A DNA stretch of 19,005 bases from a virus (lineage: Duplodnaviria > Heunggongvirae > Uroviricota > Caudoviricetes), in IMG/VR virus record IMGVR_UViG_2703718854_000004; one strand, written 5' to 3'. Position 1 is the first letter of the stretch. Each line of letters opens with the position of its first letter. Shown piece after piece: positions 1 to 15,580 of the stretch. The notes below the pieces were generated by a model. That model ran no database searches. It worked only from the letters and a program-made list of their open reading frames with translations, and was not told the DNA's origin. The position numbers and the translations under genes were made by a program.

Positions 1-1074
1 TCATTTGTCGATTTCAATTTTGTCCCATTCCCGTCCACGGCTGTCCCTATACCGCGCCGCCATTGAATCTGATTTATGCCCGAGAAGACGTTGAGCAAAC
101 TTATCGCCAATCTGGTTCCGGTATAGCCTCGCTGACAGGCTACGCAGTTCATGGAATGTTGGCGGGTTTCCATCAAATGAGAGTCCAGATGCATTTCTCG
201 CCTTTGTAAAATACTTTGATACTGTTTTCGGGGAAAGCTGATCGTGATGCTTTGATGCGATTATAGTTTCACTGCTGCTGGCCTCCCTGCATTTCTGTAG
301 TGTATCAGCCAATGAGATATTGAGCGCGTCAATCGTTAGCGTTAGTGGAATGGCGAGTTTAGCCCCTGTTTTACTCTGTTCAATGTGAAGATGGTTGTCG
401 TTTATGTCTGACCATTTCATTCTGCACAAATCGCCGACTCTCTGCCCTGTAACGACGGCCAAATCCATCGCCAGCCTTAGCCAGATAGGGAGAGGTTCGG
501 CTGCATGGTAAATCTCGACATACTCATTAGCTGTCAGCCTTGAGCGCCTTACTTCTGACTTTGCTGTACGGGTTGCTGTTACCGGATTCGTTGCCACATG
601 CCCCTCGGCTATTGCTTCACGAAAAACGTCAACAAGGGTTGACCTGATTAATTTTGCGGAAGCTGCTTTACCTTCTGCTACGTAGGTGTTTAGCATTGCT
701 GCCACTTCTTTCGTTGATATGTCAGTGAGCGGTTTGTCCGGCAATTTTCTTCGGATTGCCCTGATTTTGCTGGCGTAGTCGAGTAGAGTTTTCGGCCTGA
801 TCCCCCTTTCGGTGAGGATTCTTTCATATCGGTCAAGCCACACATGAAGAGTGATTGCGTCACCGCCTTTAATTCTGTCTATCAGTGATTTGCGTCCGCT
901 GTCTGAGAGTAACTCAATATTGGCCTGTATTGCTTCAGTGATTGCTATCCTCCTGTCTCGGCCTAATCCAAACTCTTTACCCGTCCTTGGGTCCCTGTAG
1001 CAGTAATATCCATTGTTTCTTATATAAAGGTTAGGGGGTAAATCCCGGCGCTCATGACTTCGCCTTCTTCCCAT
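1..1074 (-). CDS. int: Tyrosine site-specific integrase, lambda Int type (357 aa); window begins at its stop codon
   Basis: ORF translation (MGRRRSHERRDLPPNLYIRNNGYYCYRDPRTGKEFGLG...) matches remembered lambda Int along its length; C-terminal catalytic region with HELRSL and RY motifs; start overlaps xis 3' end as in lambda. Confidence 0.95.
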   Translation of the reverse strand: MGRRRSHERRDLPPNLYIRNNGYYCYRDPRTGKEFGLGRDRRIAITEAIQANIELLSDSGRKSLIDRIKGGDAITLHVWLDRYERILTERGIRPKTLLDYASKIRAIRRKLPDKPLTDISTKEVAAMLNTYVAEGKAASAKLIRSTLVDVFREAIAEGHVATNPVTATRTAKSEVRRSRLTANEYVEIYHAAEPLPIWLRLAMDLAVVTGQRVGDLCRMKWSDINDNHLHIEQSKTGAKLAIPLTLTIDALNISLADTLQKCREASSSETIIASKHHDQLSPKTVSKYFTKARNASGLSFDGNPPTFHELRSLSARLYRNQIGDKFAQRLLGHKSDSMAARYRDSRGREWDKIEIDK

Positions 1075-1270
1075 TTCTGATCCTCTTCAAAAGGCTACCT
1101 GTTACTGGTCGATTTAAGTCAACCTTTACCGCTGATTCGTGGAACAGATACTCTCTTCCATCCTTAACCGGAGGAGGGAATATCCTGCACTCGCGTACCC
1201 ATCGACGAACTGTTTCAAGGCTTCTTGGGCGTCGCTGGCGTGCGTTCCACTCCTGAAGTGTCAAGTACAT
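1052..1270 (-). CDS. xis: Excisionase Xis (72 aa)
   Basis: Translation MYLTLQEWNARQRRPRSLETVRRWVRECRIFPPPVKDGREYLF... matches remembered lambda Xis; 23-nt overlap with int start. Confidence 0.93.
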   Translation of the reverse strand: MYLTLQEWNARQRRPRSLETVRRWVRECRIFPPPVKDGREYLFHESAVKVDLNRPVTGSLLKRIRNGKKAKS

Positions 1271-1565
1271 CGCAAAGTCTCCGCAATTACACGCAAGAAA
1301 AAACCGCCATCAGGCGGCTTGGTGTTCTTTCAGTTCTTCAATTCGAATATTGGTTACGTCTGCATGTGCTATCTGCGCCCACAGCATCCAGTGGTCATAG
1401 CAGTCGCTGATGTTCTCGGCTTCGATAACTCTGTTGAATGGTTCTCCATTCCATTCACCTGTAACTCGGAAGTGCATTTATCATCTCCATAAAACAAAAC
1501 TCGCCGTAGCGAGTTCAGATAAAAGAAATCCCCGCGAGTGCGAGGATAGTTACTTGTTCATATTA

Positions 1566-1961: not shown

Positions 1962-2630
1962 TTATAGCTCCTTTAATCGAGGCGGTTCTGGTAGAGGCAT
2001 CCAGTGGGTTACCTCTTTGAGATACAGGTCTTCGCCATCACCGTCATCCCAAGTTGGATTGCCATCATTAAACCAGTCGCCATATACGCCGACCTGAGTG
2101 TTGGGGATGTTTGGTGGGTAGTTGTTTTTAAAGTCAGCTGCTAACACATAGCATTGTCGCTCTCCCATTTCTGGCATTCGCTCACTACAGCTTATCCAAC
2201 CATCCGGAGTTACCGGATAGTTGCCGGGTTCTTTAATGTGCAAGCGAGGCTCACCATCTTTTGGCTCAGGCCACTGGCGCTCCATGTTGATCTTCAATTT
2301 ATCTTCCATAGCAGCGGTAATTTCAGCATCGCTGATGCCAGCACGGCGCTGTGCATCCCACAACAGAAACTGCATATCAGCCCACTCGCTAAGATCGTCT
2401 GGTTCGGCTGCGGCTTCCAGTGCCTCTTTTGAGAGATGTTTCAGCGGACCAATGGGGCCAACGCAGCCAAATGTGGAGTCAGACCATTTGGCATGCTCGT
2501 GGCGAATCTGTTCGCGTTCCAGTGATGCCAGTGCAATTCGTGCCAGTTCCATTTGTTCGCCACGAGTAAGTCCGTTATCAAGCGGATTTTTAATGAATAA
2601 TTTGATACGTTCTTTGGTTATAGCGCTCAT
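1962..2630 (-). CDS. Two-domain protein: N-terminal MazG-like nucleotide pyrophosphohydrolase-like region (DUF550-like) plus C-terminal DUF551-like region (222 aa)
   Basis: Strong RBS AAGGAG 7 nt upstream of ATG at 2630 (ORF track start at 2663 is probably upstream of the real start); motif EWADMQFLLWDAQRRAGISDAEITAAMEDKLKINMERQW resembles MazG-type helices; C-terminus THWMPLPEPP resembles DUF551; occupies the variable ea22 region. Confidence 0.65.
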   Translation of the reverse strand: MSAITKERIKLFIKNPLDNGLTRGEQMELARIALASLEREQIRHEHAKWSDSTFGCVGPIGPLKHLSKEALEAAAEPDDLSEWADMQFLLWDAQRRAGISDAEITAAMEDKLKINMERQWPEPKDGEPRLHIKEPGNYPVTPDGWISCSERMPEMGERQCYVLAADFKNNYPPNIPNTQVGVYGDWFNDGNPTWDDGDGEDLYLKEVTHWMPLPEPPRLKEL

Positions 2631-5983: not shown

Positions 5984-6116
5984 TTTTTGGGACTCCTGGC
6001 TGATTAAGTATGTCGATAAGGCGTTTCCATCCGTCACGTAATTTACGGGTGATTCGTTCAAGTAAAGATTCGGAAGGGCAGCCAGCAACAGGCCACCCTG
6101 CAATGGCATATTGCAT
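5952..6116 (-). CDS. cIII: cIII, FtsH (HflB) protease inhibitor (54 aa)
   Basis: Hand translation of the minus strand gives [54 protein letters not shown], matching remembered lambda cIII; below the 60-aa cutoff of the ORF track. Confidence 0.85.
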   Translation of the reverse strand: MQYAIAGWPVAGCPSESLLERITRKLRDGWKRLIDILNQPGVPKNGSNTYGYPD

Positions 6117-6188
6117 GGTGTGCTCCTTATTTATACATAACGAAAAACGCCTCGAGTGAAGCGTTATTGGTATGCGGTAACGCTGCGC

Positions 6189-12640: not shown

Positions 12641-13024
12641 ATGCGTGATATTCAGATGGTTCTTGAGCGTTGGGGAGCGTGGGCGGCTAATAATCATGAA
12701 GATGTGACCTGGTCGTCCATTGCCGCCGGTTTTAAGGGATTAATTCCTTCAAAAGTAAAATCTCGCCCGCAATGTTGTGACGATGACGCTATGATCATTT
12801 GCGGGTGCATGGCCCGTCTGAAAAAGAACAACAGCGATTTGCACGATTTATTAGTAGATTATTATGTAGTCGGTATGACATTCATGTCACTGGCAGGTAA
12901 GCATTGCTGCTCTGATGGTTATATCGGGAAAAGGTTACAAAAGGCTGAGGGCATAATTGAAGGGATGTTAATGGCATTAGATATCCGGTTAGAGATGGAT
13001 ATCGTTGTTAATAACTCTAATTAA
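12641..13024 (+). CDS. Q: Late-gene antiterminator Q, phage 21/DLP12 QuuD type (127 aa)
   Basis: ATG 12641 with RBS GGAGTAAG; translation [36 protein letters not shown]... resembles remembered QuuD; Cys-rich zinc-binding region. Confidence 0.85.
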
Positions 13025-13040
13025 TACGCCAATTATTTAC

Positions 13041-13075
13041 TAAAAGTTATTAAAAATGGGGCGTTGAAACGCCCC
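13041..13075 (-). terminator. Intrinsic terminator for the leftward porin transcript
   Basis: GC hairpin GGGGCG-loop-CGCCCC followed on the minus strand by AUUUUUAAUAACUUUU. Confidence 0.5.
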
Positions 13076-13165
13076 CAAAAATAAAGGGTAATATATAACA
13101 GAAGGTTTATATAGTTAGAAGCAAGGTTGTGCTTCTAAAGGAAGTGGCTTGAGGGAGCCACTTAT

Positions 13166-13203
13166 ATGTTGGGGAGGCAAAGCCTCCCACAACATATCTT
13201 TTA
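13166..13203 (+). terminator. Candidate tR' (end of the short pR' transcript downstream of Q)
   Basis: Hairpin TGTTGGGGAGGC-AAA-GCCTCCCACAACA followed by TATCTTTT; pR' and qut not pinpointed. Confidence 0.45.
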
Positions 13204-13212
13204 GTAATCAAA

Positions 13213-14295
13213 TTAGAACTGGTAAACCATACCTACAGCAACGATATCATCGGTAGCAACGCCAGATGCTTTCGTGAAATCGCTCTTATCAATCAGGTTG
13301 ATTTTGTAGTCAACAAAAGTGGACATATTTTTGTTGAAGTAATAGGTTGCACCTACATCAACATATTCAACCAGGTCCTGATCACCCCAAACACCCAAGT
13401 CTTTTCCTTTAGAATGCAGGTAAGCAACGGATGGACGCAGGCCGAAGTCGAACTGATATTGTGCAACAGCTTCGAAGTTTTGTGCTTTGTTGGCAATATG
13501 GTTATTACCAAAAACAGTCATGTTCTGGGTTTCAGAATAGGTGGTGGCCAGATAGATGTTGTTCGCATCATATTTCAGACCAGCTGCCCATACTTCAGCA
13601 TTTTGACCAGAAGCATTCAGACCGTTGTTACCGTAGATAACCTGATTATTAGTGCGATCAGATTTAGCATAGGTTGCACCCACGCCGAATCCTTCATACT
13701 CATAAGTAGTTGAGAAACCGAAACCATCGCCATTAGCTTCAGTTACTTCATTTCGGTCATTTTTGCCCTGATACTGAGCTGCAAAGTTCAGGCCATCAAC
13801 CAGACCAAAGAAGTCGTTGTTACGATAAGTTGCAACACCTGTGGTGCGACCAGTCATGAATACATCTGTTTGGGTCCAGGTATCGCCACCGAATTCTGGC
13901 AGAACGTCGGTCCATGCACCGATGTCGTATGCTACACCGTAGTTACGGCCGTAATCGATGGAGCCGTAGTCACCGAATTTCAGGCCAGCGAAGGCAAGAC
14001 GGGTTTTATCTTTGGAGGAACCTTGAGATTCAGCGCGGTTGCCTTTGAATTCATATTCCCACTGACCGAAACCAGTCAGTTGATCGTTGATTTGGGTTTC
14101 ACCTTTGAAGCCAAGACGGGCATAAGTAGTATCACCATCATCTGCATCATTAGAGGAGAAGTAGTGCTTAGCATTAACTTTCCCGTACAGATCCAGCTTG
14201 TTACTGTCTTTATTATAAATTTCAGCTGCCTGAGCAGACATCGCCATCAGTACTGATGCAGCTACAGCAGAAATTGCCACTGTTAATTTTTTCAT
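13213..14295 (-). CDS. nmpC: Outer-membrane general porin, OmpC/OmpF superfamily, phage-borne NmpC/Lc type (360 aa precursor)
   Basis: Start MKKLTV... with signal peptide ending AQA; C-terminal VGMVYQF beta-barrel signature; ORF-track start at 14355 is an upstream extension; sits antisense between Q and holin as in DLP12/PA-2. Confidence 0.85.
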
Positions 14296-14723
14296 CGTGA
14301 GCCCTTTTTTTGAACTATTATTAAAAAATGATGTCACTGCGCGATAAATATTCATCTAATCAATGTGATTATTTCAAGATGTAAGTTTTGGTTTCTCGTT
14401 TGATTTGTGAAGTAGATCTCTATTTTTATCTGAACTTTTTTCTATCGAATCCTATTCATGGCTCTTGGCTGAATAAAAATAAATCTATTAGCCAATTTAT
14501 ATTAACGGCTGTTATTTATAAGTGCTCTATAATTTGAAGGTTCAATTTAAACCGGCTAAAAATAACACTGGAAATTATTTGTTGGTTATTTGTTGAGATT
14601 TGCTTATGTATTTGTAGTGGTGTTTTCAATACTCGGTAGCATTCTCGCAAATATCATTTAGTGGTTTACGTACGTAAAAAATTGGTTATGCTGTTAAGAG
14701 TGGTTACTTCGTCACACAGCTTA

Positions 14724-14757
14724 AACCCGCCGTCGAGCGGGTTTTTCCATTTTTTGA
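14724..14757 (+). terminator. Terminator-like hairpin upstream of the lysis cassette
   Basis: AAACCCGC-CGTCGA-GCGGGTTT followed by TTCCATTTTTT. Confidence 0.4.
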
Positions 14758-14867
14758 GTCTCGATATTAGCTGATAACCCAATACCTGAGTTATTCACTG
14801 ACTCCGAGTCTGTTACGTTTCGTAGTATTCCCTCAATTTACACCCGCTTTGTCTGCGAGGTGGGGTT

Positions 14868-15083
14868 ATGAAATCCATGGATAAGTTAACAACGGGTGTC
14901 GCCTATGGCACCTCAGCAGGTAGTGCCGGGTACTGGTTTTTACAGCTGCTAGATAAAGTCACGCCCTCACAGTGGGCGGCAATTGGAGTGCTGGGTAGCC
15001 TGGTATTTGGCCTGCTGACGTACCTGACAAACCTTTATTTCAAGATTAAAGAAGATAAGCGCAAGGCTGCGAGAGGTGGATAA
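14868..15083 (+). CDS. S: Class II holin, phage-21 S21 pinholin type (71 aa), dual-start motif MKSM
   Basis: RBS GAGGTGGGG; two TM segments; Met1 and Met4 starts; resembles remembered S21/EssD. Confidence 0.88.
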
Positions 15084-15580
15084 TGCCTCCATCATTACGA
15101 AAAGCTGTTGCTGCTGCTATTGGTGGCGGGGCTATTGCTATAGCATCTGTGTTAATCACTGGCCCAAGTGGTAACGATGGTCTGGAAGGTGTGAGACATA
15201 ATCCTTACAAAGACATAGTTGGTGTATGGACTGTATGTTACGGGCATACAGGAAAAGACATCATTCCCGGTAAAACGTATACCGAAGCAGAGTGCAAAGC
15301 CCTCCTGAATAAAGACCTTGCCACTGTCGCCAGACAAATTAACCCGTACATCAAAGTCGATATACCGGAAACAACGCGCGGCGCTCTTTACTCGTTCGTC
15401 TACAACGTGGGTGCTGGAAATTTCAGAACATCGACGCTTCTTCGCAAAATAAACCAGGGCGATATCAAAGGCGCATGTGATCAGCTACGTCGCTGGACAT
15501 ACGCTGGCGGTAAGCAATGGAAAGGCCTGATGACTCGCCGTGAGATTGAGCTTGAAATCTGTTTGTGGGGGCAGAAATGA
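15083..15580 (+). CDS. R: SAR endolysin, phage-21 R21-type lysozyme (165 aa)
   Basis: N-terminal Gly/Ala-rich signal-anchor-release segment [20 protein letters not shown]; catalytic triad context GLEGV...D...T; start overlaps holin stop. Confidence 0.9.

What the first reader, a model, noticed from the sequence alone, without database searches (positions are those of the whole stretch)
13213..14700. Intact porin moron antisense to the late operon, with its own AT-rich promoter region and terminator
A full-length OmpC-family porin with signal peptide lies on the opposite strand between Q and the holin. A roughly 570-bp AT-rich upstream region (14296-14867) and a strong leftward terminator (13041-13075) flank it. 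Phage porins of the Lc/NmpC type cause lysogenic conversion, altering outer-membrane permeability and receptor availability. In E. coli K-12 the DLP12 copy is disrupted, whereas this copy appears intact. Late transcription from pR' must traverse it antisense.
Basis: partly seen in the sequence, partly recalled or inferred. Interest (0 to 1): 0.45.

Follow-up and report, generated by a model that had tools for sequence, protein, structure and literature searches.

The report
Known prophage porin NmpC/Lc, intact

Summary
An uninterrupted 360-codon porin gene lies at 13213-14295 on the minus strand, between the antiterminator Q and the holin S of a lambdoid prophage. It has a signal peptide, its own leftward terminator and an AT-rich upstream region.

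It belongs to the classical Lc/NmpC family. It is 90% identical to phage PA-2 Lc and about 90% identical to K-12 DLP12 NmpC, and the flanks are 96-100% identical to DLP12. The same arrangement is found in 2396 of 5426 complete E. coli genomes.

Three points need correcting:
- **Terminator.** It lies 138 nt past the stop codon. The structured 3'UTR in between is the region of the published IpeX small RNA, which represses the host porins OmpC and OmpF.
- **Upstream region.** Only 14296-14663 is AT-rich (30% GC) and holds the porin promoter. Its start site, mapped in K-12, corresponds to G14340.
- **Late promoter.** 14664-14756 is homologous to the mapped late promoter and first hairpin of Shiga-toxin phages, whose Q is 79% identical. 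A K-12 start site falls on the predicted nucleotide, 14699. No rightward start site is recorded next to Q.

The porin therefore most likely sits between Q and pR', outside the late transcript. This is already known biology and of low interest.

The parts
12641..13024 (+). Antiterminator Q, QuuD type (Phage_antitermQ family). Homology to the Shiga-toxin-phage Q ends after codon about 120.
   Evidence: Pfam PF06530, E 9.7e-54. It is 99.2% identical to K-12 quuD and 79% identical in protein to VT2-Sakai Q. It is 86% and 88% identical to the PhiR40_1 and Lambda_2E9 Q proteins. It is distantly related to the solved Q21 structure.
13049..13075 (-). Intrinsic terminator of the porin transcript: hairpin 13058-13075 followed by a T run.
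   Evidence: Terminator scan; -13.9 kcal/mol. The only difference from K-12 and 434B in the hairpin is one loop base.
13049..13215 (-). Porin 3'UTR of about 167 nt with four stem-loops. It corresponds to the IpeX small RNA region of DLP12.
   Evidence: Folds to -61.5 kcal/mol, z = -9.7 against shuffles. The Q-nmpC spacer is 95.7% identical to K-12, and the differences in the stems and loops are loop or wobble positions. Published descriptions give IpeX as 167 nt, from DLP12, made as part of the porin transcript, repressing OmpC and OmpF. Equating these coordinates with IpeX is my inference from the length and position.
13213..14295 (-). nmpC/lc porin gene, 360 codons, intact. The signal peptide is codons 1-23 (14227-14295).
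   Evidence: It is 90% identical to PA-2 Lc over the full length. It matches K-12 NmpC at 314 of 347 aligned positions. The PEFGG loop-3 motif and the C-terminal Phe are visible in the translation.
14340..14377 (-). Porin promoter PnmpC: -35 TTGAAA at 14372-14377, -10 AATATT at 14347-14352, start site G14340, 45-nt leader.
   Evidence: K-12 start site at 576,093(-) with 331 reads and a 45-nt leader. 5'-RACE in K-12 also gives a G. The hexamers come from my own scoring. This DNA is 99.5% identical to K-12.
14403..14423 (.). CRP (CAP) site annotated in the PA-2 lc record, centred about 73 bp upstream of the porin start site.
   Evidence: J02580 annotation, mapped onto the window through the alignment. 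CRP activation of PnmpC is stated in PMC11677980.
14296..14663 (.). AT-rich spacer (29.9% GC) that came in with the porin. In K-12 it is listed as an H-NS-bound 'promoter island'.
   Evidence: Composition. Promoter-island table entry nmpC(-)/essD(+) 576129_354. Homology to Shiga-toxin phages begins only at 14664.
14665..14699 (+). Probable late promoter pR': -35 TTTACG at 14665-14670, 16-nt spacer, -10 TATGCT at 14687-14692, start site A14699.
   Evidence: Homologous to the annotated late promoter of VT2-Sakai, phi24B and Ss-VASD. The Sakai pR' start site was mapped by dRNA-seq 258 nt upstream of the tR' 3' end, which fits those coordinates. The K-12 Cappable-seq start site 576,452(+) equals window 14699.
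14695..14707 (+). TAAGAGTGGTTAC, invariant across the window, PhiR40_1 and the Shiga-toxin phages, spanning the start of the late transcript. It is a candidate Q-loading or pause element.
   Evidence: Alignments; a single occurrence in the window. The proposed role is inference.
14723..14756 (+). Rightward terminator-like hairpin (14723-14744) with a T run, 112 nt before S. It is the probable tR' that Q-modified polymerase reads through.
   Evidence: Terminator scan; -12.2 kcal/mol. Homologous to the first hairpin after pR' in the Shiga-toxin phages.
14868..15580 (+). First late genes: a phage 21-type holin (14868-15083) and a lysozyme (15083-15580).
   Evidence: Pfam Phage_holin_2_1 at E 2e-35 and Phage_lysozyme at E 3e-48.

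Best explanation
The gene is an intact allele of the lambdoid-phage porin NmpC/Lc, a lysogenic-conversion gene expressed from the resting prophage.

Shown or documented on near-identical DNA: host RNA polymerase starts at PnmpC (window G14340). This promoter is CRP-activated, and OmpR, IHF and MprA are reported to repress it. Transcription runs leftward through the porin gene and stops at the hairpin at 13058-13075.

Inferred from family membership: the protein is exported through its 23-residue signal peptide and forms a general-diffusion trimeric porin in the outer membrane.

Documented for DLP12, inferred here: the last 167 nt or so of the transcript is the IpeX small RNA, which lowers synthesis of the host porins OmpC and OmpF. 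The lysogen would then replace host porins with the phage porin, changing permeability and removing receptors used by other phages.

Inferred from homology and K-12 start-site data: the whole unit, about 13001-14663, sits as an insertion between Q and its cognate late promoter. pR' lies at 14665-14692, starts at 14699, meets a terminator at 14723-14756, and then reaches S. Late transcription therefore begins downstream of the porin and does not cross it. Only read-through from the early rightward operon past Q could run antisense to it.
For: Identity of the gene:
- Full-length Porin_1 match.
- 90% identity to PA-2 Lc.
- Same quuD-porin-essD-rrrD order as DLP12, phage 434B and many sequenced temperate phages.
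- The arrangement is present in 2396 of 5426 complete E. coli genomes.

Promoter: K-12 start site with 331 reads and a 45-nt leader; 5'-RACE and regulators. The DNA is 99.5% identical to the window.

Terminator and structured 3'UTR. IpeX literature.

Placement of pR':
- 14664-14746 aligns at 77-86% with the late promoter and hairpin of Shiga-toxin phages and PhiR40_1. Their Q proteins are 79-86% identical to this one.
- The Sakai pR' start site was mapped by dRNA-seq.
- A K-12 Cappable-seq start site lands on the predicted nucleotide.
- The list holds no rightward start site between one inside Q and one inside K-12 nmpC.
- In the phage collection the Q gene matches 362 records and the pR' module about 356 with a similar make-up. 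The Q-proximal spacer matches only the roughly 36-42 records that carry the porin.
- A reporter fragment spanning only the nmpC-essD spacer drives expression in K-12.
Against: - The K-12 start site at 14699 is weak (score 1.7, near the method's cut-off). The hexamers TTTACG and TATGCT are poor matches to consensus.
- The best consensus-like rightward promoter in the region is TTGAAA-19-TAATAT at 13064-13094, right after Q.
- In Shiga-toxin phages the homologous first hairpin is not the mapped 3' end; the transcript runs 258 nt to a second terminator. Termination at 14723-14756 is therefore assumed, not shown.
- K-12 data come from a defective prophage without Q induction.
- No expression data exist for this particular allele or strain. 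NmpC has been called 'quiescent' in laboratory strains, and the spacer is reported as H-NS-bound.
- The papers on IpeX and on DLP12 Q could not be read here.
Confidence: 0.78

Rival explanations
1. pR' lies immediately downstream of Q, as in lambda: TTGAAA at 13064-13069 and TAATAT at 13089-13094, starting near 13101. The hairpin at 13165-13198 followed by CTTTT acts as tR'. Q-modified polymerase then transcribes about 1.75 kb antisense through the porin gene to reach S.
For: This is the top-scoring sigma-70-like site on the plus strand of 12950-14900. A strong plus-strand hairpin (-22.7 kcal/mol) with a short T run follows it. The textbook Q cassette has pR' adjacent to Q.
Against: - The spacer is 19 nt, and the -35 sits in the loop of the porin terminator.
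- No K-12 Cappable-seq plus-strand start site lies anywhere in the Q-nmpC spacer.
- This spacer travels with the porin, not with the Q family.
- Phages with 79-86% identical Q proteins lack it but keep the 14664-14746 module.
Confidence: 0.15
2. The porin is intact but effectively silent cargo. H-NS coats the AT-rich spacer, and a strong divergent promoter starting at 14328 competes with PnmpC. The lysogen would then make little or no NmpC and show no conversion phenotype under ordinary conditions.
For: The nmpC/essD spacer is listed as an H-NS-bound promoter island. A strong plus-strand start site (score 90) at the position equal to window 14328 overlaps the porin leader. NmpC is described as not expressed or quiescent in laboratory strains.
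Against: In K-12 the lack of protein is explained by the IS5 insertion, not by the promoter. PnmpC gives 331 start-site reads and a clear 5'-RACE product, and it drives IS5 transposase expression. PA-2 Lc is a classical expressed conversion protein (established knowledge; GenBank record).
Confidence: 0.2
3. The gene is a displaced chromosomal ompC paralogue that happens to lie next to phage DNA, not phage cargo. RefSeq labels it 'porin OmpC'.
For: The NCBIfam OmpC subfamily model is the best hit, and RefSeq records use the name 'ompC'.
Against: The gene lies inside a complete prophage, from integrase to the tail fibre gene J, integrated beside torS. The same gene in the same slot is present in more than 36 sequenced temperate phage genomes.
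Confidence: 0.01

Closest known systems
Lc porin of phage PA-2 (GenBank J02580)
   Same: The protein is 90% identical over its full length, and the 23-residue signal peptide is identical. The upstream region is about 97% identical, including the annotated CAP site. The position between Q and the lysis genes, on the opposite strand, is the same.
   Different: The window protein is 360 aa against 365 aa. The substitutions and two short deletions cluster in three patches (about aa 182-189, 219-233 and 268-272) that probably form surface loops. PA-2 has a 16-nt insertion just upstream of S.
nmpC of the defective prophage DLP12 (qsr') in E. coli K-12, with the IpeX small RNA
   Same: Q, the porin upstream region, the pR' module and the spacer before S are 99-100% identical; the 3'UTR spacer is 95.7% identical. 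Gene order is the same.
   Different: The K-12 copy is interrupted by IS5 after codon 346; the window copy is intact. The 3' two-thirds of the coding sequence is mosaic, at only 53-95% identity per 60-nt bin. The window prophage is complete and sits at torS, not at argU.
Q-pR'-tR' cassette of Shiga-toxin phages (933W, VT2-Sakai; source of the StxS RNA)
   Same: Q is 79% identical. The -35 hexamer, the palindrome TTTACG-NN-CGTAAA, the T-A-T and final T of the -10, the block TAAGAGTGGTTAC at the start site and the first hairpin are all conserved.
   Different: In Shiga-toxin phages the promoter overlaps the stop codon of Q. Here about 1.66 kb (porin unit plus a new 7-codon Q tail) separates them. 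In Shiga-toxin phages cargo (tRNAs, stx) lies downstream of pR' and is co-transcribed with late genes. Here the cargo lies upstream and in reverse orientation. The second terminator mapped as tR' in Sakai has no counterpart here.
OmpD of Salmonella and OmpC/OmpK37-type general porins
   Same: Same Pfam family, with a full-length alignment to solved trimeric porins (OmpK37 E 2e-135, OmpC E 4e-129).
   Different: Those are chromosomal core genes with their own regulators. This gene is prophage-borne, with a phage-specific promoter region and 3'UTR.

Membership tests
General bacterial porin (Pfam Porin_1; OmpC/OmpF/PhoE type) | Full-length match to the family profile | tested here: met
   PF00267 at E 3.6e-152, covering profile 1-337 of 337. 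NCBIfam OmpC subfamily scores 515 bits against a cut-off of 484.
General bacterial porin (Pfam Porin_1; OmpC/OmpF/PhoE type) | Cleavable N-terminal signal peptide, loop-3 PEFGG motif and C-terminal Phe | tested here: met
   The translation reads [23 protein letters not shown]|AEIYNK, contains LPEFGGDT and ends VYQF. The signal peptide is identical to the one annotated for PA-2 Lc.
General bacterial porin (Pfam Porin_1; OmpC/OmpF/PhoE type) | 16-stranded trimeric beta-barrel with pore activity | not tested
   Only sequence similarity to solved porins was examined. No structure was predicted and no conductance data exist for this allele.
Lc/NmpC lambdoid-phage porin | Close sequence identity to PA-2 Lc and DLP12 NmpC | tested here: met
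   90% identity to Lc; 314 of 347 aligned positions identical to K-12 NmpC.
Lc/NmpC lambdoid-phage porin | Located between Q and the S-R-Rz lysis genes of a lambdoid prophage, on the opposite strand | tested here: met
Lc/NmpC lambdoid-phage porin | Conserved CRP-dependent promoter region and IpeX-bearing 3'UTR | tested here: met
   The upstream region is 97-99.5% identical to PA-2 and K-12, including the CAP site and the mapped start site. The 3'UTR spacer is 95.7% identical and strongly structured.
Lc/NmpC lambdoid-phage porin | Expression in the lysogen with reduction of OmpC and OmpF (conversion phenotype) | not testable with these tools
   This needs outer-membrane protein profiles of the lysogen.
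Moron (autonomous extra gene in a phage genome) | Own promoter and own terminator | tested here: met
   Terminator from the scan. The promoter is supported by K-12 start-site data on near-identical DNA.
Moron (autonomous extra gene in a phage genome) | Absent from related genomes at the same junction, with deviating composition | tested here: met
   Shiga-toxin phages with a 79% identical Q have Q and pR' contiguous. The upstream spacer is 29.9% GC against 46.1% for the window.
   The pR' homologue and a matching K-12 start site lie at 14665-14699, beyond the porin. No plus-strand start site is recorded in the Q-nmpC spacer. This rests on homology and K-12 data, not on an induced lysogen.

The most novel reading that the evidence does not exclude
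The gap between codon 120 or so of this Q family and its late promoter may be a recurrent cargo slot. It would take reverse-oriented cell-envelope genes: the porin here, a lipoprotein in PhiR40_1 and a Blc lipocalin in Lambda_2E9. Such genes would be expressed in the lysogen while staying outside late transcription. Within the slot, the surface-exposed part of the porin gene would be swapped by recombination between near-identical flanks, producing receptor or antigen variants.
Probability: 0.3. Interest if true: 0.35.

Novelty: already known. Interest (0 to 1): 0.15.

Why it matters
The gene matters as a textbook case of lysogenic conversion. A prophage supplies its own porin and, through the IpeX 3'UTR, turns down the host's porins, which can change antibiotic entry and phage receptor availability. 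None of that is new.

The only added value is a corrected map. The porin unit appears to be inserted between Q and pR', so it is insulated from late transcription and not opposed by it. The porin's surface-loop region is also far more diverged than its flanks. These points are useful for annotating the many E. coli prophages with this layout, where RefSeq calls the gene 'ompC'.

Tried and rejected
- Rfam scan of the whole window. It found only the lambda CIII thermoregulator at 6071-6129; there was no hit for IpeX or for any RNA near the porin.
- The built-in promoter scan found no site at its threshold in 12900-15000. I wrote a cruder scoring script instead. Its top plus-strand hit lies next to Q and is kept as the rival explanation.
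- The svsR prophage small RNA paper turned out to concern the cI gene and is unrelated.
- The primary papers on IpeX (Castillo-Keller 2006) and on DLP12 Q and RpoE control of essD (Rueggeberg 2013 and 2015, Toba 2011) are not held. What I say about them comes from citing papers or from memory.
- I mapped the primers of the DLP12 lysis-promoter reporter. The fragment covers the whole nmpC-essD spacer, so it cannot separate the start sites. The '+1' it implies (about 14344) matches neither 14328 nor 14699 and stays unexplained.
- Lambda_2E9 was examined as a possible 'empty site'. It has only the upstream half of the pR' module, at a different place, and could not be resolved.
- A literature search for PA-2 lysogen phenotypes returned nothing useful.
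- The stored Cappable-seq file is truncated and holds plus-strand sites only, so minus-strand starts (nmpC, IpeX) could not be read from it. Kim 2012 supplied the nmpC start site instead.
- tRNA scan of the window: none found.
- I did not run structure prediction or the large protein searches, because identity to known proteins was already decisive.

Full report
**The observation.** The minus strand carries an open reading frame at 13213-14355. Read from the ATG at 14295, which is also the RefSeq start in a 100% identical genome, it encodes 360 residues. These match the Pfam Gram-negative porin model from end to end (E 3.6e-152). They also pass the NCBIfam OmpC subfamily cut-off. There is no frameshift or internal stop codon. 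The translation shows a typical signal peptide ending AQA|AE, the loop-3 PEFGG motif and a C-terminal Phe. The neighbours are a Q antiterminator at 12641-13024 and, on the other side, a phage 21-type holin and a lysozyme from 14868. A leftward hairpin at 13058-13075 followed by a T run is found by the terminator scan and has an energy of -13.9 kcal/mol. The region 14296-14867 is 34.8% GC against 46.1% for the window.

**What it is.** The window is part of a complete lambda-like prophage, running from integrase to tail fibre gene J, inserted beside torS. It is 100% identical to E. coli AL.H8. The segment 12600-15100 is present at 80% coverage or more in 2396 of 5426 complete E. coli genomes and in 36 sequenced temperate phages. 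It has the same gene order as quuD-nmpC-essD-rrrD of the K-12 defective prophage DLP12, where nmpC is split by IS5, and as phage 434B. The protein is 90% identical over its full length to the Lc porin of phage PA-2, the classical conversion porin (GenBank J02580). It matches K-12 NmpC at 314 of 347 aligned positions. This is the known Lc/NmpC porin, and the copy is intact.

**The porin transcription unit.** The upstream DNA is 99.5% identical to K-12, so K-12 mapping can be transferred. A genome-wide start-site table gives nmpC a start at 576,093(-) with 331 reads and a 45-nt leader. That corresponds to window G14340. A 5'-RACE study also finds a G. That study reports that the promoter lies within 199 bp of the start codon, is activated by CRP, and is repressed by OmpR, IHF and MprA. 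The hexamers that fit are TTGAAA (14372-14377) and AATATT (14347-14352). The CAP site annotated in the PA-2 record maps to 14403-14423.

**The 3' end and IpeX.** The terminator lies 138 nt past the stop codon. The intervening 3'UTR folds into four stem-loops at -61.5 kcal/mol, z = -9.7. The spacer is 95.7% identical to K-12. Within the stems and loops, the differences from K-12 fall in loops or at a wobble position. From stop codon to T run is about 167 nt. That is the published length of IpeX, the DLP12 small RNA said to be made as part of the porin transcript and to repress OmpC and OmpF. I infer that 13049-13215 (-) is IpeX. The original paper could not be read.

**Where the late promoter is.**
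- A search of the phage collection with 14296-14880 showed that one short block, 14664-14746, matches several hundred Shiga-toxin phage records.
- In three annotated records examined, the match falls on the features labelled late promoter, Q-utilisation site and first terminator, directly after Q.
- The alignment conserves the -35 TTTACG, a palindrome TTTACG-NN-CGTAAA, most of the -10, an invariant TAAGAGTGGTTAC and the hairpin.
- The Q protein here is 79% identical to VT2-Sakai Q up to residue 120 or so.
- In strain Sakai the pR' start site was mapped by dRNA-seq 258 nt upstream of the tR' 3' end. That distance fits a start 7 nt after the annotated -10, which corresponds to window A14699.
- A K-12 Cappable-seq table lists a plus-strand start at U00096.2 576,452. 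After the +777 offset, checked, this is exactly 14699. The DNA here is 100% identical to K-12.
- The same table lists no plus-strand start between one inside Q (equal to 12868) and one inside K-12 nmpC, so none lies in the Q-nmpC spacer.
- In the phage collection the Q gene matches 362 records and the pR' block about 356 with a similar make-up. The Q-proximal spacer is found only in the roughly 36-42 records that carry the porin.
- Phage PhiR40_1, whose Q is 86% identical, has a different reverse-strand gene after Q and then the same pR' block.

The simplest reading is that about 13001-14663 is an insertion between Q and its cognate promoter. It comprises a new 7-codon Q tail, the terminator, IpeX, the porin, its promoter and the AT-rich spacer. 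Late transcription then starts at 14699, meets the hairpin at 14723-14756, and reaches S without crossing the porin.

**Caveats on that reading.** The 14699 start site is weak (score 1.7), and the hexamers are poor matches to consensus. My crude scoring ranks TTGAAA-19-TAATAT at 13064-13094, just after Q, as the best consensus-like rightward promoter. A plus-strand hairpin with CTTTT follows it at 13165-13198. In Shiga-toxin phages the homologous first hairpin is not the mapped 3' end, so termination at 14723-14756 is assumed. All start-site data come from K-12 without Q induction.

**The 'AT-rich promoter region' is composite.** Only 14296-14663 is AT-rich (29.9% GC); 14664-14867 is 42-45% GC. 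The boundary coincides with the start of homology to Shiga-toxin phages. In K-12 the AT-rich part is listed as an H-NS-bound promoter island. It holds a strong plus-strand start at the equivalent of 14328 (score 90; -10 TATTAT at 14316-14321) that overlaps the porin leader.

**Mechanism and comparison with known systems.** The unit behaves as a classical moron. It has its own promoter and terminator, deviating composition, and is absent from related genomes at the same junction. Its likely action is the one established for PA-2 and DLP12: the phage porin is made in the lysogen while IpeX lowers OmpC and OmpF. The steps shown here are gene integrity, family membership, and conservation of the mapped promoter, 3'UTR and terminator. 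The steps inferred are export, pore formation, IpeX processing and the conversion phenotype in this strain.

**Verdict.** The finding is real but already known, and interest is low. The useful correction is the map: the porin most likely lies upstream of pR', not inside the late operon.

Noticed in passing
window 13244-13944 (-), porin codons about 118-350: The porin allele is mosaic compared with K-12 DLP12. The flanks and the first third of the gene are 98-100% identical. The rest is only 53-95% identical per 60-nt bin. The protein differences and indels cluster in three patches (about aa 182-189, 219-233 and 268-272) that probably form surface loops. This suggests recombinational exchange or diversifying selection.
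   Followed up: partly
window 14316-14328 (+): K-12 Cappable-seq shows a strong plus-strand start site (score 90) at the position equal to window A14328, 7 nt after a TATTAT hexamer. It points away from the porin and overlaps the first 13 nt of the porin leader (the porin start is G14340). Its transcript would cross the AT-rich spacer toward pR'. Its role is unknown. It lies 16 nt from the '+1' (about 14344) implied by a published DLP12 lysis-promoter reporter.
   Followed up: partly
window 13064-13212 (+): A consensus-like promoter, TTGAAA-19-TAATAT, has its -35 inside the loop of the porin terminator. It is followed by plus-strand hairpins ending in a 15-bp stem with CTTTT at 13165-13203. 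If active, it would produce an RNA of about 100 nt fully complementary to IpeX. No K-12 start site supports it.
   Followed up: partly
L007 (PhiR40_1) 990-1436 (-); L008 (Lambda_2E9) 2050-2574 (-): Other phages with an 86-88% identical Q carry different reverse-strand envelope genes directly after Q. One is a 148-aa predicted lipoprotein with lipobox ISGC. The other is a Blc-type lipocalin (Pfam Lipocalin_2, E 2e-43). In all three phages the Q proteins diverge right after the residues LEMD (about codon 120).
   Followed up: partly
window 14665-14678 (+): A perfect 14-bp palindrome, TTTACGTACGTAAA, overlaps the -35 of the probable pR'. It is conserved as TTTACGATCGTAAA in the Shiga-toxin phages. 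It may be a protein-binding site, and its function is unknown.
   Followed up: no
window 14699-14719: The second CAP/CRP site annotated in the 1986 PA-2 record maps onto the first 21 nt of the predicted late transcript. This is the block conserved with Shiga-toxin phages, so that annotation may really mark a Q-loading or pause element.
   Followed up: no
window 14756 (+): A second K-12 data set places a weak essD 5' end (7 reads, 112-nt leader) at the G immediately after the terminator T run. It could be a processing site or a minor promoter.
   Followed up: no
window 12868 (+), inside Q: K-12 Cappable-seq lists a plus-strand start site (score 9.3) inside the Q coding sequence, 7 nt after a TATTAT hexamer. 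Its significance is unknown.
   Followed up: no
window 6071-6129 (-): There is a full-length match to the Rfam lambda CIII thermoregulator element (88.5 bits, E 9e-21). This fits the lambda-like early left operon.
   Followed up: no
L009 (Lambda_2E9) 2381-2410: Lambda_2E9 keeps only the upstream half of the pR' module (GTTTACAATCGTAAAAA ... TATGAT), followed by unrelated sequence. It lies 1.9 kb downstream of Q, after the lipocalin gene and a YbgA-like gene. It may be a hybrid promoter or a recombination scar.
   Followed up: partly
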